The position numbers and the translations under genes are program-made. A DNA stretch of 64,000 nt from Centroscyllium fabricii (taxonomy: Eukaryota). The stretch's first letter is position 1, and each line of letters starts with the position of its first letter. The notes beneath the pieces are model-generated. The model made no database searches. It was not told the DNA's origin and was given only the letters and a program-made list of their open reading frames with translations. Below are positions 8,895 through 57,591 of the stretch, piece after piece. The stretch is taken from NCBI GenBank assembly GCA_051313645.2, contig JBNRSN020000001.1, positions 472,750,001 through 472,814,000 on the forward strand, written 5' to 3'.

Positions 8895-9910
8895 ATGGTG
8901 CAGTGAGTAAAAGGACTACCCAGTGTAGCACCAAGCCATACAGACCAGAAGGTCTCATGTTTGATTCCCAATCTCTGCTCCACTTAGAGTACTGGTGCAG
9001 GGGGGAAAGCAGTTGTGGTCCAGGGAGGGCAGCAGTACTGATCCAGGGAGCGCAGCAGTACTGGTCCAGGGAGGGCAGCAGCACTGGTCCAGGGAGGGCA
9101 GGAGTACTGGTCCAGGGAGGGCAGCAGTGCTGGTGTAGCGAGGGCAACAGTACTGGTGTAGGGAGGGCAGCAGTACTGGTCCAGAGAGGGCAGCAGCACT
9201 GGTCCAGGGAGGGCAGCAGTACTGGTCCAGGGAGGGCAGCAGTGCTGGTGTAGCGAGGGCAGCAGTACTGATCCAGGGAGGGCAGCAGCACTGGTCCAGG
9301 GAGGGCAACAATACTGGTGTAGGGAGGGCAGCAGTACTGGTCCAGGGAGGGTAGCAGTTCTGGTCCAGGGAGGGCAGCAGTTGTGGTCCAGGGAGGGCAA
9401 CAATACTGGTGTAGGGAGGGCAGCAGTTCTGGTCCAGGGAGGGCAACAATACTGGTGTAGGGAGGGCAGCAATACTAGTCCAGGGAGGGCAACAATACTG
9501 GTGTAGGGAGGGCAGCAATACTGGTCCAGGGAGGGCAGCAGTACTGGTCCAGAGAGGGCAACAATACTGGTCCAGGGAGGGCAGCAGTACTGGTCCAGGG
9601 AGGGCAGCAGTACTGGTCCAGGGAGGGCAGCAGTACTGGTCCAGGGAGGGCAGCAGCACTGTTCCAGGGAGGGCAGCAGTACTGGTCCAGGGAGGGTAGC
9701 AGTACTGGTCCAGGGAGGGGAAGAATTGGTACCCAATGGCCCCTATCAGGAAGTGCACATGGTGCGCATCAGATGAGAGCAGGATCAGTCTCAACGCTAA
9801 TGCTCTGCCTAGTAATGACCTGCTGATACTCACTAACTAGGCTCACAGATGAAAATGCCAGTAGCCATGGAACCATACCATTGCAAGAGAATCAACACCT
9901 TCAGAGGTAA
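8895..9910 (+). mobile_element. Old tRNA-headed SINE-like repeat with an internal minisatellite expansion
   Basis: The head (tggtgcagtgagtaaa...gtttgattccc) and tail (ccatggaaccatacc...gagaatcaacaccttcag) recur in related pieces at ~7560-7715, 8102-8205, 1820-1960 and 42660-43010 (-). Confidence 0.55.
8989..9718 (+). repeat. 23-bp G-rich minisatellite, ~32 units
   Basis: Consensus GTACTGGTCCAGGGAGGGCAGCA with variant units (GTGTAG for GTCCAG, CAACAA for CAGCAG). Confidence 0.95.
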
Positions 9911-24004: not shown

Positions 24005-24648
24005 ATGGGCAGTAAGACTATTCCGGCTCCAGTGCCGATTCATCCGTCGCTACAATTGGCGAACTATGCATTTCTCCAAGCTTCCAACGGCATCCCTACG
24101 CCTTCAGATCAGCTGCACAACCTCTACGGCTTCAGCACCCTGCACACTGTCCATCTCCACCAGTGGACCCTGGGGTACCCTCCGATGCCTTTGCCCCGGT
24201 CTTCCTTCTCCAAAATACCTGCTGTTTCCGCTCTGGTGGACACTAGGTTTCAGCTGCCCACCATCCCCATCTTCCCTCACGTTTTTCAACCAAAACAAGA
24301 ATCAAGCAGTATTCCAAACAAGACAAGGCCCAGGTTTGACTTCGCCAATTTGGCCATTGCGGCTACCCAGGAGGACCACCCTACGCTCGGACAAATAGAC
24401 GGACAGTGTTCGCCTTCAGCCATTGGTTCCCTGCTAGATGCCACCAAGTTATCACCGGAAAGGAAGCCCACCAGGGGCAGGTTGCCGTCCAAAACCAAAA
24501 AAGAATTTGTCTGTAAATTCTGTGGGAGGCACTTTACCAAATCTTACAATCTCTTGATACACGAAAGGACCCACACCGATGAACGGCCCTACACGTGTGA
24601 CATATGTCATAAGGCATTTAGGAGACAAGATCACCTCCGTGACCACAG
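24005..24648 (+). CDS. osr1: Osr1 first coding exon (N-terminus, eh1-like FDFANLA motif, C2H2 finger 1 and most of finger 2)
   Basis: CACCATGG start at 24005. The translation [25 protein letters not shown]...LHQWTLGYP...[16 protein letters not shown]...[43 protein letters not shown] matches the vertebrate OSR1 pattern. Phase-2 donor AG|GTGAGA at 24649. Candidate upstream acceptors near 23951 and 23970. Confidence 0.96.
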
Positions 24649-25087
24649 GTGAGAGAGCACTGTTTCACCGGGCAGGGTCCTGCACTCGCACAGTGGCATC
24701 TCCTTCTTTCAAACTCTGTTGTTACAATTGTTTGGTTATAACAGAATCCGGCTGGTTGGAGAGTCGGTTGTAAACAGTAGAGGACTTCAAACTTTGATAC
24801 GAATCCATGATAATGACTATTGGTTCTGAGGAGTTCGCAAAAATGAGTTAAGATTGTAATTTAAGTAGTTTAATTCCTCTTCCCAGAACTATATGTGATT
24901 TATTTAACTGTTGAAGCCTTGCACTAAGATAAGCTTTTAAAAGGCTGAGCGCGAACAGTATGTGTGAAAACATGTAGATAAACTGCTTGTTAAATGAGCT
25001 CTTTATGTTAACTATAAACGAACCTTGCCACTGCTATTTAACAGATCGGTTAATTTTAAAGACAAATAATGCATTATTTTGCTTTAA

Positions 25088-25228
<141 letters not shown>

Positions 25229-25537
25229 GTATAGAACCTGCAAACAGCACTCAGAATGCAACGTTGATGAAAGCCTATAACGCGGACATATCTGTCAAAT
25301 TTAGAAACAGCATAGACTATATCCATTCTGCTGCTGTTCTCTTCTGTTACTTTATTCCAATACAAAGAGATTATCTGTGGGATTCTACTATGGGAAGACC
25401 TGTGTCGTTTTCTAAAAACCCTTCTTTCAGTAGATCCTCCCTTGAAACGAGGGCGGTTGAACTGTGTCGCCCTTCATGATGTCCTCCGCCGTGAACTTGG
25501 AGTTGGAAGGTGATGCTTTGTCTTCTGTGTTTAACAG

Positions 25538-25747
25538 GAATCTCCGCACAACTGCCCGACGTGTGGCAGAATGTTTAATCAGAGAAGCAACCTGAAAACC
25601 CATCTCCTTACTCACACTGACATAAAACCATACAACTGCCGTCAGTGTGCGAAGGTTTTCCGGAGGAACTGTGACCTGAGGCGCCACAGCCTCACCCACC
25701 ACCCCATGGACAACACAGAACTCAAAAAAGCTGCAATATGTGGATAG
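25538..25747 (+). CDS. osr1: Alternative terminal exon encoding C2H2 fingers 4 and 5 (predicted 317-aa five-finger Osr1)
   Basis: Acceptor tgctttgtcttctgtgtttaacag| at 25537, phase 0, compatible with the donor at 25193. Stop-free frame ESPHNCPTCGRMFNQRSNLKTHLLTHTDIKPYNCRQCAKVFRRNCDLRRHSLTHHPMDNTELKKAAICG*. Not shown in the ORF track. Confidence 0.88.
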   Translation, partial: ESPHNCPTCGRMFNQRSNLKTHLLTHTDIKPYNCRQCAKVFRRNCDLRRHSLTHHPMDNTELKKAAICG

Positions 25748-26334
25748 AGACTGTATTTGGGTTAATCCGGTCTGGTTTTTCCTAAATTTAGGGTGTAGGA
25801 TGGAATCATTACCAAACCTCAGCTAGAAGCCAAAAACAAAGCAGAGCGAGAGACTGTGGAGACTTTGTGATGTTTGAATGTATGAGGGACATCTGACTGA
25901 GGATTATGGGGCGGTTTGGCCTGTGTTTGGGAATGCAGGAATACAGGTGTAGTGTTGCGGCAGGATACAGAGCTGAGCCCCAACGCTTCAGCTTCTTCCG
26001 GTGAGAATCGACCGCTGCAAAAAAAACAGTCTGGCTGGACGGCGGAGGGATGGGGAGTGCAGAGCGGGGCTTGTGAACTGCAGGGCGTGAAATAGACTGA
26101 GCTCAGTGCTCCGCCCGTGTGAGCTGGAAACACGGCTCAATGTGCATCAGCAAAAAACACCAAGAAAAAAACAAGAAACATAAAAACACAGTCATGCAAG
26201 TTCAGAACATTCCAAACGACATTCCATTCTGCGTGTTTTTAAACGCAAATTGTTCTTTGTAAATGTTTTTGGCACTTTACGCTGTTTTTTTTAACTATTT
26301 TCATGTATCACTGGATTTCTAACCTTTTTAAACG

Positions 26335-26340
26335 AATAAA
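26335..26340 (+). terminator. Candidate osr1 polyadenylation signal
   Basis: AATAAA after a T-rich 3'UTR-like stretch. It is the first AATAAA I find downstream of both stop codons. Confidence 0.6.
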
Positions 26341-36726: not shown

Positions 36727-36852
36727 TATATATTTTGGTGATAGTGAAAAAAATCGGCAATTTGAACGCGATGTCGAGAGCTGCGAGAGCTCTGAGAGCT
36801 GGAGAGATCGCGTTCAAATCCCCGATTTTTTTCACTATCACCAAAATATATA
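36727..36852. repeat. 126-bp palindromic MITE-like hairpin
   Basis: tatatattttggtgatagtgaaaaaaatcgg..tttgaacgcgat mirrored by atcgcgttcaaa..ccgatttttttcactatcaccaaaatatata. Confidence 0.85.
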
Positions 36853-37143
36853 GGGAGGAAAAAGGAGGAAGACATAAAGCAGGAATTTAAGGAACTAGGA
36901 AGGAAACTGAGAGACAAAACGAATAATGCCACGATTTCTGGGATCCTACCAGTGCCACGGGATAGGGAGTGGAAAAACAAAAAAAGAATGAGAATAAACG
37001 CGTGGCTACAGGATTGGTGCAGAAGGGAGGGCATGAGTTTCGTGGACAATTGGGGATCGTTCTGGGGAAGGTGGGATCTGTATGACCGGGACGGCTTGCA
37101 CCTGAACCGAAGGGGCATCAACATTCTGGGTGGGAAACTCGCC
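36853..37143 (+). pseudogene. CR1 ORF1 SGNH/esterase-domain fragment
   Basis: ISGILPVPR...INAWLQDWCRREGMSFVDNWGSFWGRWDLYDRDGLHLNRRG (DGLH motif). Abuts a CR1 3' end on the minus strand (~37144-37285). Confidence 0.85.
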
Positions 37144-39084
37144 CATAGAGCTTTACAGCACAGAAAGAGACCCTTCGGCCCATCATGTCCGCGCCGGCCA
37201 TCAAGCCCTTTCTATTCTAATCCCATTTTCCAGCACTTGGTCCGTAGCCTTGTATGCTATGACATCTCAAGTGCTCATCCAAATGCGGTCGGGCTGCGCC
37301 TTGGGCCTTGCTGCCGCGGTTGAGGTTTGTCCTCCCGGAGGAGCCGGGGCCAGGGCCGGGGATGGGGATTGCTGTGCGGCTGGTCAGTCAGTGTGTTTAC
37401 TGTCATCTTGTGCTGATTTTTACAGATCTGAAGTTCCATCAACACACAAGGCCGCCGGCCCCCCGGCCCATGACCGCAGACAGAGACTCTGAGTAACGAG
37501 GATCTCCCTGATGAGTCTGCAGTCACTCTGGTTCCTTTCTAAACCTCCCTGTGCTAATTAAATTCAATGGATGATGTTGGAAAAAATCAACATTTTTGGT
37601 GTACACTTCCAGGGGGGGGGGGGGGGGGGGGGGGAGGGGGTAGCAAAAAAGAGTACTCTTTGTACACTTGTGAAAATGTTGACAATTGTGAAGGGCCCCT
37701 AAAGTAAACACTAAATGCAATTCCAGCTCATATGTAATAAAAACAGAAAATGCTGGAAATACTCAGCAGGTCAGGCAGCATCTGTGGAGAGAGAAACAGA
37801 GTTACGTTTCAGCTCGATGATCTTTTGTCCAGTTCATTTGGGTTCTCTCTTTTCCCCAATCTCCCTTCTTTGTCATTCTTTCTGCTATTTTAACTTTACT
37901 TTTATATTGTTTATATTTTAATTCCTATTGACTTTTTACGTATCAATTTTAACCATTAAACCTTCCTGTTTCTCAAACTCCAGAATCTGTCCATCAACTT
38001 GAGATAAAAGCCACATTGCAAAAATTGGTCTCTAATTTGCAAATATCTTTTTCCAGCTAACCATGGCTAAAGATAGTAAAGGTTTATCCAGCTGTATCGA
38101 GTCGATCTTGTGATATTTTGTTTTGCTACAATTTGCAACACTTGCTCAATAAGATAATTAATTGGCAGGCCAGATGAGTGGGCACCACAGGAATGAGTGA
38201 CTTTCTGTCAGAGCTCCATGCAATAAAATATATATTTTTGAATCGCCCTCATCAGATTACTCCCTTCTGTGTCATGTACCATTCTCTGCTAAAGAAGGGA
38301 GTAAGACCTCATGCTGATGTATCACAGTAATCAGTTGCTAGGTGATGCTGGAGAGCTGTGGCATGGTTGCTCAGTGCCTCCACAAGACATTTGGGGAGTC
38401 ATTTATGTAAACTGGCATTCTACATTCCAGGAACTCCTTTGGAACCTCTTCATACTGGTGCAGACAAGATTATTATTGATTCCACTGAGAAAATTCTCCT
38501 ATGCAGATTGGACCTTCAGTAGCAGTCATATTGCATTGTGAACATAGCAACAGGATTGCACATGTTTTATATTGGCAAATGTTTATCTGTGGGAGTTCAA
38601 TACCCCTTTCATAACAAACTTTATATTACATATGTTTTATATTAGCAATGCATATTTGTCTGAGCTCAATATTATTTCTACACCTGCATAGATATTGGCA
38701 ACTTTATACCACTTTATGAACTTTTATATAATGGATGGAAAATCCTGCAGGACCTGCTGACCTTCCTGCTTGAATTCCCAATATGTGCTCTTGGTCTATT
38801 GGATATGCAAATTGCTAAAATAAAGCTTATGGAGTATTGTGCAGCAGTTGCTTTACACTCCTACCAGGAATAACACTGTAACACAATTTCTAGGGTTTCA
38901 TTGTAAAATAAATTGGTGCCTTAATACAATTGAAACAATACACATTAACAATAACGGTAGGTTTGACAGTGTCTTTAAATAGAAAAGCCAGATTAATGCT
39001 TGCGGTGCAGGCCTTTCATCAGAACCAATGGTATCAATATAATGATATTAGTGTCTTGAGGCTGTTGTTGTATGATGAATATCG

Positions 39085-42000
39085 ACTTTTTAAAAATTCA
39101 TTGATGGGATGTGGGCGTCGCTGGCTGGCTAGGCCTGCATTTAGTGCCCATTCCTAATTGCCCTTGAGAAGATGGTGGTGTGCCACATTCTTGAACCGCT
39201 GCAGTCCATATGGTGTAGGTACACCCACAATGTTGTTAGGAAGGGAGTTCCAGGATTTTGGCCCAGCGACAGTGAAGGACCGGCAATACAGGTCCAAGTC
39301 AGGATGGTGTGTGGCTTGGAGGGGAACTTGTAGGTGGTGCTGTTCCCATGTGTCTGCTGCCCTTGTCCTTCTAAGTGGTAGAGGTCGCGGGTTTGGAAGG
39401 TGCTGTTGAAGGAGCTTTGGTGAGTTGCTGCAGTGCATCTTGTAGATGGTACACACTGCAGCCACAGTGCGCCGGTGGTGGAGGGAGTGAATGTGGAAGA
39501 TGGTGAATAGAGTGCTTTATCCTGAATGGTGTCGAGCTTCTTGAGTGTTGTTGGAGCTGCACTCATCCAGGCAAGTGGAGAGTATTCCATCAAACTCCTG
39601 ACTTGTGCCTTGTAGATGGTGGAAAGTCTTTGGGAAGTCAGGAGGTGAGACACTCGCCGCAGAATTCCCAGCCTCTGGCCTGCTCTTGTAGCCACAGTAC
39701 TTATATGGCTGGTCCAGTTCAGTTTCCGATCAATGGTAACCCCCAGGATGTTGATAGTGGGGGATTCAGCGATGATAATGTCATTGAATGTCAAGGGGAG
39801 ATGGTTCGAGTCTCGCTTGTTGGAGATGGTCATTGCCTGGCACTTGTGTGGTGCGAATGTTACTTGCCACTTGTCAGCCCAAGTCTGAATGTTGTCCAGG
39901 ACTTGCTGCATATGGACACGGACTGCGTCAGTATCTGATGAGTCTTGAATGGTGCTGAACAGTGTGCAATCATCAGTGAACATCCCCACTTCTGACCTTA
40001 TGATGGAGGGAAGGTCATTGATGAAACAGCTGAAGATGGTTGGGCCTAGGACACTGCCCTGAGAAACTCCTGCAGTGATGTCCTGTGGTTGAGATGAATG
40101 ACCTCCAACAACCACAGCCAACTTCCTTTGTGATAGGTATGATTCCAACCAATGGAGAGTTTTCCCCTTGATTCCCATTGACTTCAGCTTTTCCTGGGCT
40201 CCTTGATGCCACACTCGATCAAATGCTGCCTTGATGTCAAGGGCAGTCACTCTCACCTCACCTCTTGAGTTCAGCTCTTTTGTCCATGTTTGCACCAAGG
40301 CTGTAATGATGTCAGGAGCTGAGTTGCCCTGGCGGAACCCAAACTGGGCGTCAGTTAGCAAGTTATTGCTGAGTAAGTGCCGCTTGATAGCACTGTCGAT
40401 GACACCTTCCATCACTTTGCTGATGATTGAGAGTAGACTGATGGGACGGTAATTGGCCAGGTCAGATTTGTCCTGCTTTTTGTAGACAGGACATACTTGG
40501 GCAATTTTCCACATTACTGGGTAGATGCCAGTGTTGTAGCTGTACTGGAACAGCTTGGCTAGGGGCACAGCTAGTTCTGGAGCACAAGTCTTCAGTACTA
40601 TTGCCAGAATGTTGTCAGGGCCCATAGCCTTTGTAGTATCCAGTGTCTTCAGCCATTTCTTGACATCACGTTAAGTGAATTGAACAGGCAAAAGACTGGC
40701 ATCTGTGATGCTGGGGACCTCAGGAGGAGGCCGAGATGGATCATCCACTCGGCATTTCTGGCTGAAGATAGTTGCAAATGCTTCAGCCTTGTCTTTTGCA
40801 CTCACGTGCTGGGCTCCACCATCATTGAGGATGGGACATTTTTGGAGCCTCCTCCTCCTGTTAACTGTTTAATTGTCCACCACCACTCATGACTGGATGT
40901 GGCAGGACTGCAGAGCTTTGATTTGATCCGATGGTTGTCAGATCGCTTAGCTCTGTCTATCGCTTGTTGCTTCTGTTGTTTGGCATGCAAGTAGTCCTGT
41001 GTTGTAGCATCACCAGGTTGACACCTCATTTTTCGGTATGCCTGGTGCTGTTCCCGGCATGCTCTCCTGCACTCTTCGCTAAACCAGGGTTGATCTCCTG
41101 GCTTGATGGTAATGGTAGAGTGAGGGATATGCCGGGCCATGAGGTTACAGATTGTGGTTGAATACAATTCTGCTGCTGCTGATGGCTCACAGCGCCTCAT
41201 GGATGCCCAGTTTTGAGTTGCCAGATCTGTTCGAAATCTGTCCCATTTAGCACGGTGGTAGTGCCACACAACACGGCGGAGGGTATCCTCAACATGAAGA
41301 CAGGACTTCGTCTCCACAAGGACTGTGCGGTGGTTACTTCCACCAATGCTGTCATGGGCAGATGCATCTGCAACAGGTAGATTGGTGAGGACGAGATCAA
41401 GTAGGTTTTTCCCTCTTGTTGGTTCCCTCACCACTTGTCGCAGACCCAGTCTGGCAGCTATGTCCTTTAGGACTCGGCCAGCTCGGTCAGCTGTGGTGCT
41501 ATCGAGCCACTCTTGGTGATGGACATTGAAGTCCTCCACCCAGAGGACATTTTGTGCCCTTGCTACTCTCAGTGCTTCTTCCAATTGATGTTCAACATGG
41601 AGGAGTACTGATTCATCAGCTGAGGGAGGGTGGTAGGTGGTAATTAGCAGGAGGTTTCCTTGCCCATGTTTGACTTGATGCCATGAGACCTCATGGGGTC
41701 CTGAGTCAATGTTGAGGAGTCCCAGGGCTACTCCCACCCGACTGTATACCATGGTGCCACCACCTCTGGTGGGTCTGTCCTGCCGGTGGGACAGGACATA
41801 CCCAGGAATGGTGATGGTGGTGTCTGGGACATTGACTGTAAGGTATGATTCTGTGAGTATGACAATGTCAGGCTGTTGCTTGACTAGTCTGTGGGACAGC
41901 TCTCCCAATTTTGGCACAAGTCCCCAGATGTTTGTGAGGAGGACTTTGCAGGGTCGACAGGGCCGGGTTTGCCGTTGACCTTGTTGTTTCCGGTGCAGAG

Positions 42001-42387
42001 GTCAATACCGGGTGGTCCGTCCAGTTTTATTCTTATTGTTTTTCGTAGCGGTTGTTTACAACTGAGTGGCTTGCTAGGCCATTTCAGAGGGCATTAAGAG
42101 TCAACCACATTGCTGTGGATCTGGAGTCACATGTAGGCCAGACCAGGTAAGGATGGCAGATTTCCTTCCCTAAAGGACATTAGTGAACCAGATGGGTTTT
42201 TGCAACAATTGGCAATGGTATCACGGTCGCCATTACTAAGACTAACATTTAATTCCAGAATTAAATTGAATTGAATTTAAATTCCACCAGCTGCCGTGCT
42301 GGCATTTGAAACCATATCCTCAGAGCATTTGACTGAGCCTCTAGCTTACTAGTCTAGTGATATAACCACTACGCCACCACCTCCCCC
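39085..42387 (-). mobile_element. Near full-length CR1/L2-group LINE (APE + RT, frameshifted) with tRNA-like 5' head
   Basis: APE ORF 41917-40802 (PDIVILTES, DFNVHH, LDLVLT, SNH). RT ORF 40625-39141 (YRPISLL, QFGFR, LDIKAAFD, GVSQGSVLGP, FTDD). 3' tail near 39085-39170. Box A/B-like motifs at 42376-42366 and 42313-42301. Confidence 0.92.
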
Positions 42388-44672: not shown

Positions 44673-44905
44673 GGGGACAAAATTTGGTCCTTTGGGGTGC
44701 TAACTGTGCTACTTTTATCGCCCCAAAAAAGTTAGCACCCCCGCACCCGAAATTCACTGGTAGCACCCCAAGAGGGAGGTGCTACTGGAAGCGCCCCGCC
44801 TCCTTCTTGGGGTGCTGTGAGTGAATATCGTGGAATTACATGCCGCAGCACCTTGCCTCTAAGGGCGCTAATGGGAGGCACAAATCAATCGAATTTCGCC
44901 CCCCC
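44673..44905. mobile_element. Degraded Harbinger-type MITE
   Basis: Termini ggggacaaaatttg / gaatttcgcccc; resembles 57765-58548. Confidence 0.55.
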
Positions 44906-45214
44906 CCCACCCCAAGTTCCTTCTCGAGCAGTGAGTGGCTTCAGTTGGAGCTAAAGACTTACTAAAAAAAAATGCTTTAATCAATTTGGGCTTCATGGAA
45001 TTTCCGGTGAGTGGCAGGACGTTGCCCATGAATGCACACAGCTATTCCTTATTGATAAATTCAATGCACTGTTTAATAAGCAGTAGCTAAATTAGTGATT
45101 AAGTGATTTTCTAGTACTGTATAAGAAAATTAAGTAAATATATTAAAGAACCACAAAAACAACTCAAAACATTTTGGCTGACAAATAATTTATCAAAATT
45201 TGTAAATTGGTATA

Positions 45215-46297
45215 CAGTCAAACCTGTGTTAGCGGCCACCTCTACAGAACGGTCACCTGTTCATAGCGGCCACATCGGTCTCCCCCGCGGAGAAATACTG
45301 TATTATAAGCCCTGTACACAACGACCACCTGTTCAACGCGACCAGTGGCCACCCGTTTTGTATCCCTCAATCAATTTCCAACCGCACACAGTGTTAATCT
45401 GTAGAGGTAGCCGCTAACACAGGTTTGACAGTGCCGCCACTCGTGGAAGCAGCCAATCAGCGAGAAACAAGGGCGGTTGCACCACCCCCATTGTCACACT
45501 GATTTACAAGCGTGTAGCAAAGGGCCGCGGACGAATGAGAAGGCACCAACGTCACGTTTCCATGGCAGCGGCCCTGCTGTATCTCCTTGTTTGGGTTGAG
45601 AAAGCGCGGGGTTAGTGCGAGTCAATGAGTAACTGGCCAGTCACCCCACACACCCGGGGGCTGGGCTCACATCACACTCAGCCTGCGGTGTGAGAGAGAG
45701 AGAGGAGGAGGAGGAGGAGGAGGCCGTGGATCCGCGGCCTACCGCCTCAAGATTAATCCCCGAGGTGAGACCTTTAGGATAGCGGAGAGAGAGAGAGACT
45801 CACCTCAGATGGTGTCCGGTGGGGCTGCGGAGAGACTCCATCTCCCTTTCCTCACACATACTCAGCCCGAGAAGACAAGATCCTCTGGTTTCACCTACAT
45901 CTCCTCACTCAAATTTTTTAAATTTTAAACCCGCAATCGTGCCTTCTTCCTTCGGCTGGCGCGATTCAAACTTCCCGCTGCCGCATCACACTCACAAAAT
46001 GGCGGCTGCCCTCTTCACCCGCACACGGACACATTAAAACTTTTCCCTCTGGCTCTCTCCCACCTTTTAGCTGGGATGCTTTAAATTTAGATCGTTCACT
46101 CAGTCACGTCTCCCCATCTTTTCTTTTCTCTGGCCGGCTGGGCTTTTAAATTTCCTGCTTTTCTTGGGACCGGACCGCGCCACAGCTCATGTACATAACA
46201 ACAAAATGGCTGCCGTCAACCTGTATAGAAACCCACCTGTCTATAAAGGCCACTTTTTGCATTTCCTGTGAGTGGCCTTTCTGTACAGGTTTGACTG
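45215..46297. mobile_element. Tc1/mariner(pogo)-type composite element: two MITE modules flanking CpG-rich cargo
   Basis: Outer TIRs CAGTCAAACCTGT / ACAGGTTTGACTG with TA on both sides. Damaged inner TIRs at 45400-45431 and 46213-46235. Confidence 0.85.
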
Positions 46298-47442
46298 TAA
46301 ATGCAGTCAATGAGATTTCTGATCATCAGGTACATTTTGGTTGGAAATTTCCTCAGAGCTGCTCCTAACTTCACTGTTTATAGATTGTGAGTTGTTATAT
46401 TACTTTTATGTATCATGAAGAATTCCTCAGTTTAAAAATAAACACTGCAAAAGATGGGTTCTAAGAGTGCAACACACACAAGGTTTATTCTTTCTTTACT
46501 CTTGTATAAAATATCTTATGTTTCTTCTTAAAGTGTAACCTGTAGTTTAATAGCAATAAATGTAGGAATCCCAGCACGTATAAAGCAGTAAATAGCTTGT
46601 GTGTACTGAATAAACACAGGGGCCAATGGTTGAAGTGTTTATTGGTGTTATAACGTGTGCACCATGTATTATACACAATGGCCTTCACTAAGTTGTTGTT
46701 GGTTGAGTGTATGGCACCGAAATCCACAAACTTTATTGGTAAAATCATAACCTCATGATCTTCAGCTAAGTGTTTAGTATTATTGAGCATAACTCAAAAC
46801 CAGGTTCTTTTTTAAAATAGATTTATTTTTGTAATAACTTTGTTTGTAAAAATTATTTAGTTAGTTTTCTGCTCATCAAGGTGAGACATGTCAAAACTGA
46901 GGAATGAAACATGGGGGGAATTTTGAGGTCCCCGTCAGGCGGGGTTTTGGGCGGCCGTGAGGTGAAAATAGGAACATTTTGGCTCCCGCCCAAGCCCGCC
47001 CATTCCCCGCTGCTTTTGAATTTTTGGGCGGCCTTTTTCCCCGCCCCGAATCTGTCCCGCTGGCGCCCGGCGGGGATGGTTGTAAAGGTCGCTAAGGGCC
47101 CTTAATTGCCATCTTTTATGCCATTTTAAGGGCCCTTAGCAATTTTCAGCTGTTTGCCGCACAAAAGCTGCCAAGCTAAACCCCGTCAGGTGAAACCCTT
47201 GTGCGAACTCAGTCGGATTGCTGAGTATCTGTGGCCGGTCACTCATTGAAGGTTCACATTTAATCAGCCATCATTCGCATTCGCAACCACATTGTTGTCT
47301 CAGTCCTGGGGATACTTGCAACAGGCTGCAGCACACCTGTGGGCGGTTGCATCCTCAAACACTTCTGCAGTGTGACCTGGGAAAGCCCTCTCACTTCCCC
47401 AACTCAGTCAGTGCTTCCTCAGCCGCGGCTGCCAGCACAGCC

Positions 47443-48690
47443 ATGGGAGCCATTTTCTTCCTTCCCTTCTTGGGATTACATGATCTCCATCAGGAGCAGT
47501 TGCGGCTACAGCAGCAACAGCAGCAGCCACACCAGGAGCCTGACGCTCCTGCGGACCCTCCGGTGGCAGGATGGGCCAGAAGGCATCCGCGCATCGAAGG
47601 CCGGCGCCGTAGAAGATACACCCCAAACCGGGTCTACAGTGTCAGAGCCACCTACCTCAACATGAGTGAGTGGCGGTGCCAAAGGCAGCTCCGACTTTCC
47701 CGAGAGGCAGTCACAGATATCTGCGCCATACTGCAGCAGCAGCTGCAGCCCAGGACACCAGGTAGACATGCCTTACCAGTGGCCCTCAAAGTCACCACCG
47801 CACTCAACATCTTTGCCTCGGGCTCATTCCAGGGATCAGCAGCAGACATCAGCGGAATCTCCCCATCGGCCGCACACTCCTGCATCACCCAGGTAACCGA
47901 TGCCCTCTTTGCCCTCGCCCACAACTTCTTCCATTTCACCACGGATTGCGCAAGTGTGAGGGCCCGAGCGATTGGAATAGCTCGTCTGGCAGGCTTCCCA
48001 AGGGTACAGGGCATCATTGACTGCACACATGTGGCCCTTAGGGCACCCACCGACAACCCAGTTGCTTTTGTCAACCGCAAGGGCTTCCATTCGCTCAATG
48101 TTCAACTGGTGTGTGACCACCACAAGGAGATTTTGCATGTGTGTGCCAGGTACCCTGGCAGCTGCCATGACTCCTTCATCTAGCGACAATCAACTTTGCC
48201 TACGCTCTTCACACCACCGGACGAACTTCCGGGATGGCTACCTGGAGACAAGGGCTATCCCCTCAGGACTTGGCTCATGACGCCGGTCAGGAGGCCAGCC
48301 AATGAGGCTGAGGAGAACTACAACTCCACACACATCTCCACCAGAAGCATTATAGAGCACACCATCGTTTTGCTCAAGATGCTTTTCAGATGCTTGGACA
48401 GATCAGGTGGAGCCCTGCAATACTCCCCAGCCAGGGTCTCCAGAATGGTAGTGGTTTGCTGTCAACTTCACAACATGGCCCAGCGTCGTGGCTTGCAAAT
48501 TCCTGACCAAGACCTGGCTCCTCGCATACCGTCCTCAGATGATGAGCAGGAGGAGGAGGAAGAGGAGGAAGAAGAGGAGGAGGAATATGACGGGGGAGCT
48601 GCAGCTCGACACCAGCCTCCGCCAGCATTACACGAGAACATTGCTGCCCGGCAAGCAAGGAACGAGCTCATCCTTGCAAGATTTGCTTAG
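47443..48690 (+). pseudogene. Harbinger DDE transposase, one in-frame nonsense codon
   Basis: MGAIFF...FASGSFQ...GFPRVQGIIDCTHV...NRKGFHSLNVQLVCD...YPGSCHDSFI*RQS...GDKGYPL...RSIIEHTI...[18 protein letters not shown] at 48181-48183, and the frame continues past it. Confidence 0.92.
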
Positions 48691-50125
48691 CCTACTCAAG
48701 GCAGCTTCTGCTACTCTCACCATCCTAACAGCGCATCCAGCTGCCACACTCCAAGCTGTTCCATAGCTCATACCTGCATGAGCTGCACTACTGCAACAAC
48801 ATCTGTGTGTGGGGGGTGGGCTTATGGGGCTGCCAATTGGCTCTGAGTGCCTTCAGCGCTCGCGCATGCACCCAGTCCCCTGACGCCCCAGACATTTCAT
48901 TTATGCTCATCGTCCCATCCATCCATCCATCACATGCAATAATGAACCCAGAAACTATAAAGGTTGCAACTGTAACATGCAGTTTAATAATGGCATTAAG
49001 CAACCATGGCCACATTAATGGTTGTTCGAGTCAGGACCAGCACTTATCAATCACTGCATTAATGTTGTCCCAGCCATCTCACCTACCTACATGCAGATTT
49101 CAAAGCTCAAAAAGTCATTATCAGCAATGCAGAACCTCAGCCAGTCCAGTTTTGAGAATGCAAGTTCATTTCCACCGTCACTCAGGGTCCACCAATCTCA
49201 CGTGGTGCCCCTCCCTTTTCGAGTGCGCCACAGATTCTGACCAAGCATCGACTCTGCTGTGGGATTCACACTGAAATCTGGGTTCTTTATCAGCGGATCC
49301 AAACGCAAAATCCGTCTGACGTCGTCACCACGGTCCTTTGAAATGGCCCATACAGACAATATGTACCGTTCGATTATGGCTGCCATGTCAAGATTGCTGA
49401 TGCGGCTGGGGCTGATGTGCCTCAGGCTGTCCTGGAGGTGCTTCAGGGTTGCGCATCCGAACATGCGCCAGGAGATCTGGAACACGGTGTGGGAAAATGT
49501 GTGGTGGGCCTGCATTCACGTCCTAACGTTCAAAATCAGAGATGTGAGGCATGCTGGAACCATGGCTGATTGGCCATTCCATCAGGGTCAGGTGCTGTGA
49601 GGGGCCAGCTGCAGCCACATGATGTTGGATGCATGGGCACTTTGGCCAGTTGGCCCATTTTTTCTTTGCCCACCTCCATCCCTGTTGAGTTGACTTTGTT
49701 TGTGCGTTCAGCCGTGAGGCTTGTTTCCTGGTGGTCGATGAGCATCAGGAGGTTTCTGCAGTTCGGGTGCTGATCATTTCCAGCATCCATCATTTACACA
49801 GTCGTTCTGGTCGGTGGTGTGCGTAAGCATTCAGGTAGGCCGATTTCAAGTACCTTCACACTTCACCATTGAGCTACTGTCTGTTATTAAACCTCGTGCG
49901 TCTTGCTGTAAGTCCTTCTGCCATCTTGCGTCTGCATCATTGCATATCTGTGAGGCCTGGCCAATTGCTGGGCAGCCTGCATATGGCATCAATGTGGAAG
50001 GGTCATTCGCGAGATGGCAGACATGACAACTGCATCAGGTGCCACCCTGAGTGGTCTGCTGTGTGACCAGCACTATGGACACCTAAATCGCTCTAACACT
50101 ATCACCCAAGTGACTCCCCTTGTAC

Positions 50126-52106
50126 CTAAGGGTGCTTAACTGTACTCTTACGAGTCCTCCTACGTGGTGCTGGCCCTGTGGCATCAGCAGATGTGGAGGC
50201 CCCCTGCTGAGTTCCCTGCTGCTCCTGTGTGGACACCTTTGGCGATCGTCCTCTGGGGCGGCGAGTCTTTGAGGGCTTGCCACCAGTCTGCGGCTCCTGC
50301 GGCTGGGCAGGGTATGAGACTTCCATCTCAGGTGGATTGGGACTCCGGCGGGCCTCTGACCGAGGGCTCTGCAGTGGTGTGGACGTGAGAGCGCTTGGAG
50401 AGGAGCCCCCACTTCCTGCAGCTGCACCACCAACCTCCCTCTCATGGGTCAACTCCCCCTCAGTGCTAGCAAGTGGCTGGACAGCACCTTGCTGCACTTC
50501 AGGGGGGCCATGGGGACCTGTATCTACACTGCAAGTCCTACTGAGAGGGACTTCCATTAAGGTCTGGTTCCTGTGCTCAATAGATGCCACTCGCTCCTCA
50601 AGAGATGTGACTCTATTCCAAACACTCCCCATGTCTTCGAAACACTGGCGACTTATGTGCTCGATGGCCATTGCCATCATCTCATCCATGGTCACTATCC
50701 TTTCCATGGAGGTTGCCATCCTTCCCATGGTGATGCGATCAGGTGCCACTGACTCCGCAAAGGAGCTTCTCATGCTCACGACGGATTCCTCAATTCGCAT
50801 GATACTCGCAGCTACCTCGGAGACAAAACCTGCCAGAGACGCCTGCATCTGTGTCTGGAGTCCCATCATCTGTCCTCTGCCTGATGGATCCAGAGGCACA
50901 GGGTCGACATGCAGCTAAGCTAAGCTGGCAGAGTCCTGCGCCCTCCGACCAGGACTCTGCAATGCTGTCCCTGTCTCCACAATCTGCTGAGGCTCACTTG
51001 TGCTGTCTGGATTACCCGGTGACAAGTCAGATCTATCTCTAGGGGGCCCACTGAGGTGCTAGTATCTGCGCTGGTGCCGGGTGGTGTCTGTGCTGCTGAC
51101 GGTGTGCCCTCAGAGGTGGCAGCTTCCTCTGAGGACTGTACAGGGGCCAGCTCATTCTCAGCAGCACTCGGCCAGCCAGCTGTGGCTGGTCCTGTGGGCC
51201 AGTAAAGGAAGAGGTTAGAAATATGTCAGCAAGGTTACATAGAGATAGCATTCAGGAGCTGAGCAGAAGTGCATCTGCAGTGCTTTTATATTCATTGTGC
51301 CAGTCTCATGTGTTAGCTAATAGAGAGAAATGAAACCATGCTGTCACCAGCTTGAGATTCCATGCCTGCCTCGCCGTCACCCACTCCTGGTCCTCCCCTA
51401 CGAGATCAAGGACTACCTCCTCCCAGGTGCTCAGCTGCAGGATGGTGGGGGGTCCTCCTCCGGTCCCGGCTCTCTGCCACTTGTTGGCAGTTGACTTTTC
51501 CTGCAATGAGGGAGAGAAGTGCAGGTTAAGTGAGAAGGAAGGAGTTGGTGCAGCGAGTGGCCAGCAAAGTTAGTTGGAGGGAGAGAAAGATGGAGTAAGC
51601 CTGCAAGACCAAAGGCTCTCCGTGTGTGGTGCCAGATGTGCTGCAAGCATGAGAGTGAGAGGGAGTGTGAGGGTTGCATGGTGGAGAAGGACTGTGATTG
51701 TGAGCATAGAGAGAGAGGGAATGGGTAAGGTTGCTTCGATGTGATGGTGAAGTGGGATGTGGAGGAAGGGAGTGGTGAAGCTAAGTTCTGATGAGAAGAG
51801 GTGAGGGGGATGAGATTGAGGGTGAGGGGAAATGAATACTTACTTTCGCAATGCGGTGCAGGTCATGCAATCTCTTCCGACACTGGAGCCAGGACCGGGG
51901 TGTTGTGCCCAAGGAGCTGACCCCCTCAGCCACCTGCAGCCAAGCAGCCTTGGTCTGGGAGGGAGGTCTCTTCCTCCCTGAGGAGGGGAAGAGAATCTCC
52001 ATATGGGTCTTGCCCCCTCGACTAATGTGTCGAGAGAGGCGTCATCAAATTTGGGGGTGGGTCGTCCCCTCCCAATGTCCGATGCAGCACACTCACGCTC
52101 AGCCAT
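50126..52106 (-). pseudogene. Harbinger Myb/SANT-like DNA-binding protein gene, 3 exons, disrupted
   Basis: Exon 1 52106-51844 (PKFDDASLDTLVEG/ILFPSSGRKRPPSQTKAAWLQVA..RSWLQCRKRLHDL, frameshift near 52003, donor GTAAGT). Exon 2 51500-51348 (GTGGGPP). Exon 3 from ~51200 to the stop at 50126, with a coiled-coil-like segment and a basic tail. Confidence 0.8.
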
Positions 52107-53164
52107 CCTGTTGAAGGCTTGTAAAATGCTGAGCAGTGCAGGAGGCGAGCCGTGTTCATTAAAAGAAAGGCGAATACTGACGTCATACTCTGCGACTTTC
52201 TGACTGGAAATCGGTGATTGAGAAGGCTTCCCACAGGCGGGATTTAATTGGGTACTTAGACTAAAATAACGTGGGAAACGCAGGCACTTTATCAGGCGGG
52301 GCCAAAGCCCACCCTGGCCAATCCCCGTCAATTCCCCGCCATTATGGAAAAATTCTGGCCATTGTTTCCCAGTTTTAGTACCCTCTGATAGCATCAAGCA
52401 TTCCAACATCAGGTATAGGATAGTCATATACCAGGTGACATTTTTGCCACTGTGTGACAATGTGCCTTAAACCCAATTGCAGAAGAGTACCCCTATTGCA
52501 CTGCTATGACTTTTTATTTCCCCAACAATCTTGTGACTAAGATTTCTATTTCAGTGGTAAATAGCGCTCATCAATGTATGTCATGGTTGCATACCCAGTA
52601 AACCGAACCTCGAGTACCCAATCTTATTTAATAAAGGGCTCTTATGGTATTTTGAGGGGACAAACATATGTTCCACTTATCGAGGCTGGGTTTTAATTTA
52701 GGTAGCAGAGATAAGGCAGTGTACTGAGGCACTGAGCCATCGCTCTCCATGAAGTTGATTAGTGTCTGGTGCCTGAAACAGCATTTATTACATCAATGGG
52801 AATTTTTCGGCATGTTCTCTTTTAAAAATAACAATTCTGAAAACTTTGCTGTCACACAAACCGGTTGGTTCCTGCAGCAGATGCTATATTCACTGTGAAA
52901 GAATGTTTTCCAATGGAGCTTTTGTAACTGACAGGATTGGTAGTAAGACGTCATTAATACATCACCAATCACATTCTCTCAATTTCCTCTATTAAAGAAA
53001 ACTGAAGCATTAATTTATTGCTCTGACTAAGGTGAGGCTCAGGATGTTCTTTTCTTTTTTTATAACGTAATCATTTGCAAAGTTCACTTTTAAACTAGCT
53101 CCATGAAATAGTCTTAAGATCACTAACAAATTTCCTTTACTTTTTATTTAAAAAATGACACCAG

Positions 53165-54742: not shown

Positions 54743-57591
54743 CCCTGCAGCGGGTACTCAAAACTGCCCAACGAATCACCGGTACCCAGCTACCGTCAAT
54801 GGAAAGCATCTACCTCGAACGCTGCTTACGGAGGTCTCTGAACATTATTAAAGACCCCACACACCCCAGCCACAGTCTGTTCGCCCCGCTGCCCTCCGGG
54901 AGACGCTACAGATCAATTCGCACCCGCACGACTAGATTTAAGAACAGCTTCTTCCCCAGGGCTGTCAGCCTCCTGAACTCTAAAAATAAACTCCGGTACC
55001 TGCACACCTGATAATCATAGAATCATAGAATCATAGAAATTTTACAGTGCGGATAAGGGCCATTCGGCCCATCCAGTCCGCACCGGCCCAGGAAAACTCC
55101 TCCCTGTACTAACCCCAGTTGCCCGCACCTGGCCCATAACCCTGTATGTTATGGTCCTTCATGTGCTGGTCCAAGTATTTTTTAAATGTTGTGATGGTTC
55201 CTGCCTCCACCACCCTCACAGGCAGGGAGTTCCAGTCTTCCACCACCCTCTGGGTAAAGAAATTTCTCCTTACCTCCCCCCTAAACCTCCCCCCCCTGAT
55301 CTTGAATCTATGTCCCCTAGTGCTTGACTCTCCCACCAGGGGAAACAATGCCCCTTTGTCTACCCTATCGTGTCCCCTCATGATCTTGTACACCTCAATC
55401 ATGTCACCCCTCCACCTTCTTTTCTCCAAGGCAAACAACCCCAGCCTGTCCAGCCTTTCCTCGTAGCATAGGTCCGCCAGACCAGGTATCATCCTGGTAA
55501 ACCTTCTCTGCACCCTCTCCAGGGCAGCCACATCCTTCCTGTAGTGCGGTGACCAGAACTGCACACAGTACTCCAGCTGAGGTCTCACCAGTGTGTTATA
55601 CAGGTTTAACATTACCTCCCTACTTTTGTATACTATGCCCTGGTTAATAAAGGCGAGGATTCCGTATGCCTTCTTAACCACCTTGTTAACGTGTCCAGCA
55701 ACCTTCAGGGAGCTGTGCACCTGTACCCCCAGGTCCCTCTGCTCCTCGGTCCTATTTAACGTTTTGTTGTTCATGGTATATTCCCTTACCCCATTTGGTC
55801 TACCGAATTGAATGACCTCGCATTTCTCTGGGTTGAACTCCATTTGCCATTTTTCTGCCCAATTAACCATTATATCTATATCCTCCTGAAGCCCCTTACT
55901 ATCCTCATCGTTGTTTACCACCCTTCCGATTTTCGTATCATCAGCGAATTTGCTGATTGTACCCCCTACTCCCATATCCAAATCGTTGATGTATACTAGA
56001 AACAGTAAGGGTCCCAAAACCGATCCTTGGGGGACGCCACTGGTTACTGGTTTCCAGTCACAGAAGCAGCCCTCTACCATTACCCTTTGTCTCCTATCCC
56101 CCAGCCAGTTTTCGATCCACTGTGCCAAGTTACCCTGTATCCCGTGCGCTCTAACCTTTGTTATTAGTCTCCTATGTGGGACTTTATCAAAAGCTTTGCT
56201 AAAGTCCATATATACTACGTCCACAGTACTCCCTTCATCCACCCTCTTTGTTACTTCCTCGAAGAATTCCAACAGATTGGTCAGGCACGACTTACCTTTG
56301 ACGAAGCCATGCTGACTGTCTCTTATTAGACCTTGGTTGTCCAAATGCGAACTGATTTTATCCCTCAGAATTTTTTCCATTACTTTCCCCACTACAGATG
56401 TAAGACTGATTGGCCTGTAGTTGCCCGGTTTGTCCCTACTACCCTTTTTAAACAAGGGTACTACATTAGCCGTTCTCCAGTCCTCAGGCACATCCCCTGA
56501 CGCGAGAGAGGTCCTGAAGATTTGAGACAGGGGGCCCGCAAGCTCCTCCCTGGCCTCGAACAGCAGCCTGGGGAACATTGCGTCCGGCCCTGGTGATTTG
56601 TCCACCTTTAAGCCTCCCAAGATTTCTAGAACTTCTTCCCTTGTAATGGTAATATCCTCAATTACCCCCCCTACACTCTGTCCGATTTCGATGTCGGTAT
56701 CGTCCCTCTCTCTTGTGAATACTGAAGAGAAGAATTCATTTAGTACCTCCCCCACCTCCTCGGGCTCGACGCACAGCTTTCCGCTATCGTCTTTTATGGG
56801 CCCCACCCTTTCCCTCGTGATCCTTTTGTTTTTTATATAACTATAAAATGCCTTAGGGTTATCCTTGATTTTACTGGCCATTGTAATCTCATGACCTCTC
56901 TTGGCTTTTCTTATCTCCTTCTTTAAATCCCCCCTATATTTCTTATACTCCCCTAGTGCCGCCTCAGTTTTTAGCCGTTTATATTCGTTAAAAGCCCCCC
57001 TTTTTTTCTTCATTAGTTTACATATATCCCTAGACATCCAAGGTTCCCTTTGTTTGTCTCCCCCACCCTTAATTTTTGCAGGAACATGTTCCTCCTGTAT
57101 CTTCCCGACTTCCCCTCTGAAGGCCTCCCACTGCTCTGATGCAGATCTTCCTCTGAGGAGATGGCCCCAATCTACTGCGGTTACATCGTTCCTAATTTTA
57201 TTGAAATCCGCCTTCCCCCAGTTAAGTATTTTTACCCCTGGTCCATTTTTATCTTTCTCCATTACAATCTTGAAACTAACTGAATTGTGGTCGCTATCCC
57301 CGAAGTGCTCCCCCACTGTTACCTCCTCTATCTGCCCGTCCTCGTTCCCAAGTATTAGGTCTAGTACCGCCCCCCCCCTTGTAGGTGACCCCACATATTG
57401 TTTCAAAAAATTATCTTGGCTGCATTGTAAGAATGCTGAACCATCCGTGCCCCTCACACTTTGATTCTCCCAGTTGATACTGTATGCAATTTGCATGTAA
57501 TTTATTTGCACTACTCTCGGGAGCGTCGAGTCTTCGTCTCTTTGTATTGTACTCGTACTCTGCAATGACAATAAAACTTAAATTGAATTGA
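54743..57591 (+). mobile_element. Rex1/Babar-type LINE 3' fragment, interrupted by CR1
   Basis: LQRVLKTAQRITGTQLPSMESIYLERC..IIKDPTHPSHSLFAPLPSGRRYRSIRTRTTRFKNSFFPRAV to 55011. The 3'UTR resumes at ~57475 and ends tgacaataaaacttaaattgaattgaa. Confidence 0.85.
55014..57474 (-). mobile_element. Young 5'-truncated CR1 LINE with open ORF2 (EN C-terminus + RT)
   Basis: Stop-free frame from INWEN.. to 55109: GDSDH, NYRPISLTS, QHGF, DFSKAFDKV, GVPQGSVLGP, FADD. (ATTCTATG)n tail. TGATA at 55009-55013 and 57475-57479. Confidence 0.95.

What the first reader, a model, noticed from the sequence alone, without database searches (positions are those of the whole stretch)
45215..46297. Composite-transposon architecture carrying promoter-like CpG cargo
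Seen: module 1 (45215-45431) and module 2 (46213-46297) are each small MITEs of the CAGTCAAACCTGT family. The outer TIRs are perfect and TA-flanked, while both inner TIRs are damaged (..TTTGACAG; CCGTCAA-CCTGT). The ~780 bp between them is CpG-island-like: CCAAT (45451-45460), CRE-like ACGTCAC next to an RFX-like GTTTCCATGGCAGC (45549-45569), donors GAG|GTGAGA (45765, +) and GAG|GTGAGT (~45803, -), a CDE/CHR-like AGCGG-gaag-TTTGAA (45979-45965, -), and YY1-like CAAAATGGCGGC / CAAAATGGCTGC (45995, 46202). Inference: a Pack-type mariner/pogo element, built like a bacterial composite transposon, that moves fragments of host promoters and first exons. It lies ~19 kb downstream of osr1.
Basis: partly seen in the sequence, partly recalled or inferred. 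Interest (0 to 1): 0.7.

Follow-up and report, generated by a model that had tools for sequence, protein, structure and literature searches.

The report
Shark transposon carrying promoter-like DNA
This is one copy of a multi-copy, non-coding jumping element in a shark genome whose middle is a patchwork of promoter-like DNA, probably picked up in part from a host gene; it is a single element, not two small elements acting as a bacterial-style composite.

Summary
The coordinates and motifs are real. The object is one TA-flanked, 1,083-bp non-autonomous pogo-superfamily (pogoR-like) DNA transposon in a shark, 19 kb downstream of osr1.

The 'two MITEs' are its left and right ends. Module 2, inner 'TIR' included, is the ordinary right end, also seen in animal relatives and autonomous pogoR elements. 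Module 1 is the ordinary left end plus a 35-nt inverted copy of itself. Short forms join the two outer ends and skip both inner TIRs.

Public shark contigs show that the interior is multicopy: tens of variant contigs per site, many different flanks at both TA ends, and one copy at another locus. The 'resident promoter' refuter therefore fails.

Host capture is supported, not proven. In a second organism one 1,733-bp contig carries 45485-45638 alone, without ends, and its 4 differences from the window all match the family majority. Other patches (45644-46023) occur there in other repeats. No source gene, empty site, transposase or expression was shown.

Best reading: a multicopy Pack-TIR-like element with mosaic promoter-like filler.

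The parts
45213..45214 (.). left TA target-site duplication
   Evidence: other copies diverge into unlike flanks at 45211-45213 (24+39+65 contigs in X1, agreement 0.36-0.41; table 7)
45215..45371 (+). left end: 13-nt TIR plus direct 16-17-nt repeats at offsets 9, 25, 42, 97, 114 (inferred transposase-binding sites); the part kept in short forms
   Evidence: joints 45361->46235 and 45371->46235 in X11 (table 5)
45398..45431 (-). inner inverted copy of the first 35 nt of the left end (94%); not TA-flanked; inferred fold-back duplication; missing or replaced in some copies
   Evidence: pair I1; (X5 loose end at 45442; X1 record 3 replaces 45372-45470 by 70 other letters)
45432..45484 (+). interior piece A: CCAAT box and GC box
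   Evidence: spanned from the left end by X5 record 25 (45317-45473)
45485..45638 (.). interior piece B: CRE half-site and X-box-like word; candidate captured host promoter fragment
   Evidence: X12 record 16 (1,733 bp, depth 7.37) aligns only here, with 4 differences, all equal to the X1 majority letter; X5 joint 45256->45485 shares the boundary
45639..46030 (.). interior piece C: GA/GAG microsatellite, two convergent donor-like words forming an 8-nt inverted repeat, CHR-like and YY1-like words; patches also lie in repeated contigs of organism D with other neighbours
   Evidence: X12 records 17-19 and loose ends at 45644, 45755, 45946, 46023
46031..46200 (.). interior piece D: pyrimidine-rich linker; skipped in some copies
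   Evidence: joints 46030->46201 (X1) and 45845->46188 (X11)
46201..46297 (-). right end: TIR, spacer and two inverted repeats ending about 62 and 80 nt from the tip ('module 2'), with the YY1-like word at its inner edge; 46235-46297 is kept in short forms
   Evidence: same layout read by eye in autonomous pogoR elements; tables 5, 7
46298..46299 (.). right TA target-site duplication
   Evidence: 78 contigs in X1 and 6 in X11 run on into unlike flanks at 46299 (table 7)

Best explanation
A single non-autonomous pogo-superfamily (pogoR-like) cut-and-paste element, 45215-46297, with an acquired, mosaic interior: a multicopy Pack-TIR-like family. SHOWN: intact TA-flanked ends of the ancestral left and right type; many insertion sites; an interior present in many diverged copies; short forms and internal variants; no coding remnant. 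INFERRED: a pogoR-type transposase (CENP-B/HTH + DDE_1), supplied in trans, binds the 16-17-nt end repeats and moves the whole unit into TA sites. Gap repair with template switching at broken copies produced the internal deletions, the fold-back copy of the left end, and fillers copied from elsewhere: piece B from a conserved single-copy host regulatory region, piece C from another repeat or gene family. Because the outer ends stayed intact, the filled version was amplified. The copy near osr1 is most likely a decaying passenger. Sub-odds: one element rather than a composite 0.9; interior multicopy 0.97; interior foreign to the transposon 0.75; piece B from a single-copy host promoter 0.55-0.6.
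For. X1 holds both flanks with 0 differences (records 1, 7), so it is the same species. Loose ends with low agreement fall at both TAs. 6-45 variant contigs lie at each interior site shown. Record 3 (3,345 bp) carries left end plus piece B behind 3,008 letters unlike this flank. X5 records 25, 30 and X11 record 15 span the end-interior junctions with 8-13 differences. X11 joints give a 220-bp short form of outer ends only. X12 record 16 holds piece B in mid-contig with 459 and 1,120 unlike letters on its sides and matches the X1 majority at its 4 differences; the chance of no further difference in a neutrally aged copy is 0.002-0.018. End layout is shared with animal relatives: 11 of 16 long right-type ends have the second inverted repeat ending at 79 (8 of the 11 are one family), and alignment A1 keeps the inner AGG-T in 9 of 9 chosen ends. 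The 13-nt TIR occurs in autonomous pogoR (DD29D) and Lemi elements (PMC7386202 supplement 3). Interiors of three long relatives are GC 0.38-0.40 against 0.54, and the shark interior has no hit in 125 loci. No credible Pfam hit in 12 interior or end frames; no Rfam hit. Read by eye, the right-type end is the 3' end of autonomous pogoR elements, so an inward-facing exon-like half there cannot be the transposase promoter.
Against: The host-source claim rests on one contig in one run of an unnamed organism; its flanks could not be read and no gene was tied to it. Piece C lies in repeated contigs of organism D, so much of the 'cargo' may come from another transposon and not from genes. A relative (L005) gets CCAAT, CRE and YY1 words from a nested element with 208-bp inverted repeats, so such motifs do not need host capture. 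No listed contig spans the whole element, and most terminal loose ends probably come from short forms. Copy number is not measured: summed contig depth (interior median about 210 times the flank, range 24-761) is, by the tool's own warning, no copy number. Tables 3, 7 and 8 were cut (134, 240 and 2,772 rows not shown). No transposase was linked to these ends in any fetched locus.
Confidence: 0.55

Rival explanations
1. One non-autonomous pogo element whose interior is all transposon DNA: its partner's own promoter and 5' UTR, or remnants of nested elements. The single-copy match in organism D is then a young or exapted transposon fragment, and no host gene was captured.
For: Piece C patches are repeated in organism D (depth 31-440 against about 7). 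A relative gains the same motif kinds from a nested element (L005), and another carries a tRNA-like insertion (L021, by eye). Internal deletion series are the rule in this family (56 short forms of 130-238 bp). MER6 is a Tc1/mariner-type MITE that took its interior from a SINE (PMC6887750, abstract).
Against: Record 16 has no other element part in 1,733 bp and equals the family majority over 154 bp, while copies in X1 mostly differ from the window by 1-10% (table 1). Tc1/mariner promoters tested so far are AT-rich and motif-poor (PMC6446368, abstract). No match to Harbinger or other GC-rich repeats of the window (0 of 48 comparisons beat all shuffles).
Confidence: 0.33
2. A true composite: two independent MITEs inserted around a stretch of DNA and were later moved together by their outer TIRs, the inner TIRs decaying.
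For: Module 1 has 35-nt arms, 94% complementary, and folds as a hairpin (z -6.4). One symmetric MITE with 30-nt arms exists among 56 short relatives (L051). More loose ends lie at the left tip (128 contigs) than at the right (78), which symmetric units could cause. Composite-like eukaryotic elements exist (KolobokP; PMC9587614, passages).
Against: No TA beside either inner word. Module 2 is a standard right end, also in autonomous elements. Short forms skip both inner words (table 5). No loose end at 45432 or 46212 among the 24 rows shown (240 hidden; the weakest X1 row shown has 13 contigs). The two modules are not copies of each other.
Confidence: 0.08
3. Two chance insertions around a resident, single-copy promoter or enhancer of this locus.
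For: The interior meets simple CpG-island numbers and lies in the regulatory neighbourhood of osr1.
Against: The interior occurs in many variant contigs and at another locus. This copy differs from the majority at 31 or more interior sites, 8 of them CpG losses (expected 3.8, P 0.03, shown rows only).
Confidence: 0.02

Closest known systems
pogo superfamily, pogoR family (e.g. Bapl-pogo-mollusca, DD29D) and MITEs derived from it (PMC7386202)
   Same: TA duplication; same first 13 TIR bases as Bapl-pogo and two Lemi elements; short TIR with subterminal repeats; same left and right end layouts (by eye)
   Different: No transposase; 1,083 bp; GC-rich motif-dense interior; extra inverted copy of the left end. 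That supplement file has no row naming sharks or Chondrichthyes.
Pack-TIRs of animals (PMC8277862)
   Same: TIR element enclosing 100-5,000 bp of foreign-looking DNA; TcMariner-type ends are common (115 of 370); a candidate parent without TIRs; 5' UTR capture is known (frog CAPSL, 3 copies)
   Different: Only 4 of their 370 cases were multicopy, the example having 3 copies, against at least tens here. The interior here looks mosaic. The parent is not identified in the same genome, so their test is not met.
Bat HelibatN3 Helitron carrying the NUBPL promoter, first exon and donor (PMC4224331, PMC4778049)
   Same: Non-autonomous DNA element with promoter-, first-exon- and donor-like cargo amplified to many copies; the best functional model (exon trap)
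   Different: Rolling-circle, not cut-and-paste; there the source gene, about 1,000 copies and promoter activity are shown, here none is.
MER6 (PMC6887750)
   Same: Tc1/mariner-type MITE whose interior came from another repeat and was amplified with it
   Different: Cargo is a SINE domain in mammals; here it is promoter-like and its donor repeat is unknown.
Bacterial composite transposons and KolobokP (PMC9587614)
   Same: Superficially, two TIR-bearing blocks around a middle
   Different: There the blocks are copies of one mobile unit that also occurs alone; here they are the unlike left and right ends of one element.

Membership tests
pogo superfamily (pogoR-like), non-autonomous | TA target-site duplication | tested here: met
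   flanks diverge at both TAs in other copies
pogo superfamily (pogoR-like), non-autonomous | short TIR like those of autonomous members | tested here: met
   first 13 bases equal those of Bapl-pogo (pogoR) and two Lemi elements; a Tigger table shares only the first 10-11; none in the Passer supplement
pogo superfamily (pogoR-like), non-autonomous | DDxD transposase with CENP-B/HTH_Tnp_Tc5 and DDE_1 that places it in a family | tested here: inconclusive
   none in the element or beside matching TIRs in fetched loci; family assignment rests on the ends alone
pogo superfamily (pogoR-like), non-autonomous | dispersed copies at different sites | tested here: met
   tables 3, 7, 8
Pack-TIR (Tan et al. 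2021) | 100-5,000 bp enclosed by the two ends of one TIR element | tested here: met
   781-bp interior
Pack-TIR (Tan et al. 2021) | unique parental copy, 90% or more identical, not linked to a TE, in the same genome | tested here: inconclusive
   no genome held; only a cross-species candidate for 154 bp (X12 record 16)
Pack-TIR (Tan et al. 2021) | enclosed DNA is not itself transposon DNA | tested here: inconclusive
   no hit to 125 loci, window repeats, Pfam or Rfam; but piece C is repeated in organism D; no repeat library at hand
Pack-TIR (Tan et al. 2021), multicopy class | same cargo at several sites with distinct insertion flanks | tested here: met
   X1 record 3 and 6-45 variant contigs per site; no listed contig spans a whole second copy
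Pack-TIR (Tan et al. 2021) | empty orthologous site | not testable with these tools
   no laid run joined 45214 to 46298; X1 carries the insertion (records 1, 7)
Composite transposon | two copies of one mobile unit bounding the middle | tested here: not met
   modules are unlike left and right ends
Composite transposon | each bounding unit also moves alone, with its own duplication | tested here: inconclusive
   no TA at inner edges; short forms skip inner words; no inner loose ends among 24 rows shown, 240 hidden

The most novel reading that the evidence does not exclude
A cut-and-paste pogo element captured, in steps, promoter and first-exon pieces of several host genes, spread them to hundreds of sites in shark genomes, and still works as a portable two-way promoter plus splice-donor cassette that starts new transcripts or traps exons: a TIR-element counterpart of bat HelibatN3, far above the copy numbers reported for animal Pack-TIRs.
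Probability: 0.2. Interest if true: 0.72.

Novelty: new variant of a known kind. Interest (0 to 1): 0.44.

Why it matters
The one survey I read found animal Pack-TIRs almost always single-copy (4 multicopy of 370, PMC8277862); mass spread of captured promoters is documented for bat Helitrons (PMC4224331). A pogo-type family that amplified promoter-like filler to tens or hundreds of sites in sharks would extend that route to cut-and-paste elements and to cartilaginous fish, and would give a ready test set: one cassette in many genomic contexts. If the interior is only old transposon DNA, this is an ordinary non-autonomous family. No repeat library (Repbase, Dfam) was at hand, so the family may already be listed there.

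Tried and rejected
No genome is held, so no genome-wide BLAST.

Run search: 12 runs from 6 studies, shares 0.04-0.27; no RNA holder listed, which is no evidence on expression. I laid 4 of the 12 (X1, X5, X11, X12); the other 8 are not used. X11 is only guessed to be RNA.

X12 shows no cover on either end of the element or on most of the flanks, and X5 and X11 little on the flanks. These are parts without cover and are not counted as evidence. Summed depth was converted to ratios but is only a rough hint.

Interior 24-mer in JGI metagenomes: 0 hits. TIR patterns in viral contigs: 0 and 0. In prokaryote genomes: 2 hits, one without the end repeats (L124) and one short MITE (L125).

Transposase hunt: 8 long ORFs of the loci were host-type or had no family, and 39 frames near TIRs gave no transposase domain.

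The idea that the interior came from the neighbouring Harbinger element (two short inverted matches, pairs I5 and I23) was rejected: 0 of 48 local alignments beat all 40 shuffles.

My list of 'long left ends' was selected for lacking an opposite TIR, so it cannot show that the inner left arm is unique to sharks, and 4 of the 6 relatives aligned look like short MITEs with a worn right TIR.

Papers: the 12-nt TIR word gave 3 unrelated papers, the X-box-like word none; two searches listed no description of this family (listings only). Earlier scan notes: none on this DNA; one unrelated algal MITE note, not used.

Full report
WHAT IS THERE. The window is from a shark: the exon at 24005-24649 is 98% identical to sawshark OSR1, 96% to ray, 90% to chimaera and 84% or less to bony vertebrates. 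The first AATAAA after the last zinc-finger exon is at 26335, 18.9 kb before the finding. The stretch 45215-46297 has perfect 13-nt outer TIRs and TA on both sides. The interior (781 bp, GC 0.54, CpG o/e 0.72) is one of several such stretches: 18 of 254 windows pass the same test. Its motif density is the highest of 159 windows, a post hoc test. The two donor-like words are the arms of one 8-nt inverted repeat. Twelve reading frames over the element gave no credible Pfam hit (three weak hits, E 0.009-0.04, all below cut-off), and Rfam gave none.

IT IS ONE ELEMENT, NOT TWO. A degenerate TIR pattern fetched 123 loci from metagenome assemblies; GPCR, fibrinogen-C and Mab-21 ORFs beside some show animal DNA, host taxa not determined. 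Their ends fall into two types. Left-type ends carry direct 16-17-nt repeats at offsets close to the window's 9, 25, 42, 97, 114. Right-type ends carry a TIR, a spacer and inverted repeats ending near 62 and 79: 11 of 16 long right-type ends have the second one (8 of the 11 are one family), and 9 of 9 ends that I chose for alignment keep the inner AGG-T. Module 2 is this right end, and its 'damaged inner TIR' is the second inverted repeat. The same layout can be read by eye in autonomous pogoR elements with DD29D transposases, and the first 13 TIR bases occur in the mussel element Bapl-pogo and two Lemi elements (PMC7386202, supplement 3). Module 1 is the left end plus a 35-nt inverted copy of its own tip (94%). 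Neither inner word has TA beside it. Both arms share a letter at 45243 that 71% of summed depth lacks, which suggests that the inner arm was copied from the outer arm within this subfamily (inference). Joints in X11 connect 45361 or 45371 to 46235, giving a short form of about 220 bp that skips both inner words. Against this: more loose ends lie at the left tip than at the right, and one symmetric MITE exists among 56 short relatives, so a rare stand-alone module 1 is not excluded.

THE INTERIOR TRAVELS WITH IT. I laid 4 of 12 listed runs, all Logan contigs. X1 holds both flanks with 0 differences at depth 6.3-7, so it is the same species and may be the source sample. Loose ends with agreement 0.36-0.41 fall at 45211-45213 (128 contigs) and 46299 (78). 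At the interior sites shown, 6-45 contigs carry another letter; a single-copy locus would give one or two. Record 3 (3,345 bp) has left end plus piece B behind 3,008 letters unlike this flank. Diverged contigs in X5 and X11 span both end-interior junctions. Summed depth over the interior is a median of about 210 times the flank (24-761 over 12 bins), which the tool says is no copy number; I read it as 'at least tens, probably more'. This copy differs from the majority at 31 or more interior sites, with CpG sites hit about 2.5 times as often as others (8 of 31; P 0.03; shown rows only). That fits an ageing, partly methylated insertion. Tables 3, 7 and 8 were cut (134, 240 and 2,772 rows hidden).

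WHERE THE INTERIOR CAME FROM. In X12 (organism D) one 1,733-bp contig at depth 7.37 aligns only at 45485-45638, with 459 and 1,120 unlike letters on its sides. Its 4 differences from the window (45522, 45543, 45548, 45614) are all the letter held by 94-100% of X1 depth. A neutrally ageing copy would match the majority throughout with probability 0.002-0.018. A conserved, TIR-less, apparently single-copy match is what a parental locus should look like. It is one contig, and its gene is unknown. Patches of 45644-46023 lie in other, repeated contigs of D that run on into unlike sequence at 45644, 45755, 45946 and 46023, and the loose letters at 45644 contain a CCAAT box at the place where piece B ends. 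This suggests a B-C junction at a short shared word (inference); microhomology was present at a breakpoint in 67.6% of Pack-TIRs (PMC8277862). Long relatives have AT-rich, unrelated interiors (GC 0.38-0.40; no hit in 125 loci). Read by eye, the right-type end is the 3' end of autonomous pogoR elements, so the inward-facing half next to module 2 is not where a transposase promoter sits. Against capture: relative L005 gets CCAAT, CRE and YY1 words from a nested element, piece C is itself repetitive in D, and no repeat library could be searched.

HOW IT MOST LIKELY WORKS. Shown: intact ends, TA sites, many insertions, internal variants, no coding capacity. Inferred from established pogo/Tc1-mariner biology (recalled) and from the gap-filling and template-switch models of PMC8277862: a pogoR-type transposase acting in trans excises the unit; repair of broken copies gives deletions, the fold-back arm and fillers from other loci; filled versions with intact outer ends amplify. 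I give 0.55 to this with at least one host-promoter piece, 0.33 to an all-transposon interior, 0.08 to a true composite and 0.02 to a resident promoter. Promoter or donor activity, and any effect on osr1, are untested.

COMPARISON AND NOVELTY. It works like a multicopy Pack-TIR, but the defining parent in the same genome was not testable. Tan et al. found 4 multicopy cases among 370, the frog CAPSL 5' UTR example having 3 copies. The closest functional model is bat HelibatN3, which amplified the NUBPL promoter, first exon and donor to about a thousand copies and traps exons in cells (PMC4224331, PMC4778049). MER6 is the model for the all-repeat rival (PMC6887750). It fails the composite test that KolobokP meets (PMC9587614). 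Nine paper searches listed no description of this shark family; subscription journals, Repbase and Dfam were not searched.

WHAT I SAW OF EACH PAPER. PMC8277862: abstract, sections 7, 9, 14 and passages; its supplements were not read and may list shark cases. PMC7386202: passages, section 8, searches of its supplements and part 1 of 67 of file 3 (sequence cells cut at about 400 letters). PMC9219625 and PMC9976928: passages and one supplement search each. PMC9587614, PMC4778049, PMC4224331: passages. PMC6887750, PMC6446368: abstracts. The motif labels (CRE, X-box, CHR, YY1) and the CpG-island thresholds are recalled and come from no call.

VERDICT. Real feature, composite architecture wrong, mobility of the cargo right, host capture plausible on thin evidence. 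Interest 0.44; new variant of a known kind if piece B is confirmed, otherwise an ordinary new member.

Noticed in passing
window 46900-52500: PIF/Harbinger-like element 600 bp to the right: DDE_Tnp_4 nuclease frame 47194-48690 split by one in-frame stop at 48181-48183, with opposite-strand frames at 50126-52466 that have no Pfam hit.
   Followed up: partly
window 24005-25750: osr1 has zinc-finger coding blocks at 24596, 25124 and 25637, matching the long 316-374-aa shark and ray forms rather than the roughly 260-aa tetrapod form.
   Followed up: no
L005 2610-5092: A relative with the same ends encloses a nested element with 208-bp inverted repeats (90% alike) that hold CCAAT, CRE and YY1-like words, and broken frames that look by eye like THAP and P2X7-tail fragments (labels recalled; no Pfam hit).
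   Followed up: partly
L059 249-576, L020 2347-2567, L073 17-287: Relatives with doubled, nested or tandem TIRs: end rearrangements are common in this family.
   Followed up: partly
window 44748-44830 and 44692-44771: Small palindromic element with 32-nt arms just left of the finding (pairs I2 and I9).
   Followed up: no
window 55109-57577, 39141-42001, 36796-37323: LINE remnants: an 822-aa and a 509-aa frame with RVT_1, and a GDSL-esterase-like frame.
   Followed up: no
window 8988-9719: 23-bp minisatellite, 31.8 copies.
   Followed up: no
window 45604-45660 and 45809-45865: A variant lacking about 50 bp at 45605-45659 is seen in three runs, and X11 has a form joining 45845 to 46188 with other sequence before 45809: the family has several interior subtypes.
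   Followed up: partly
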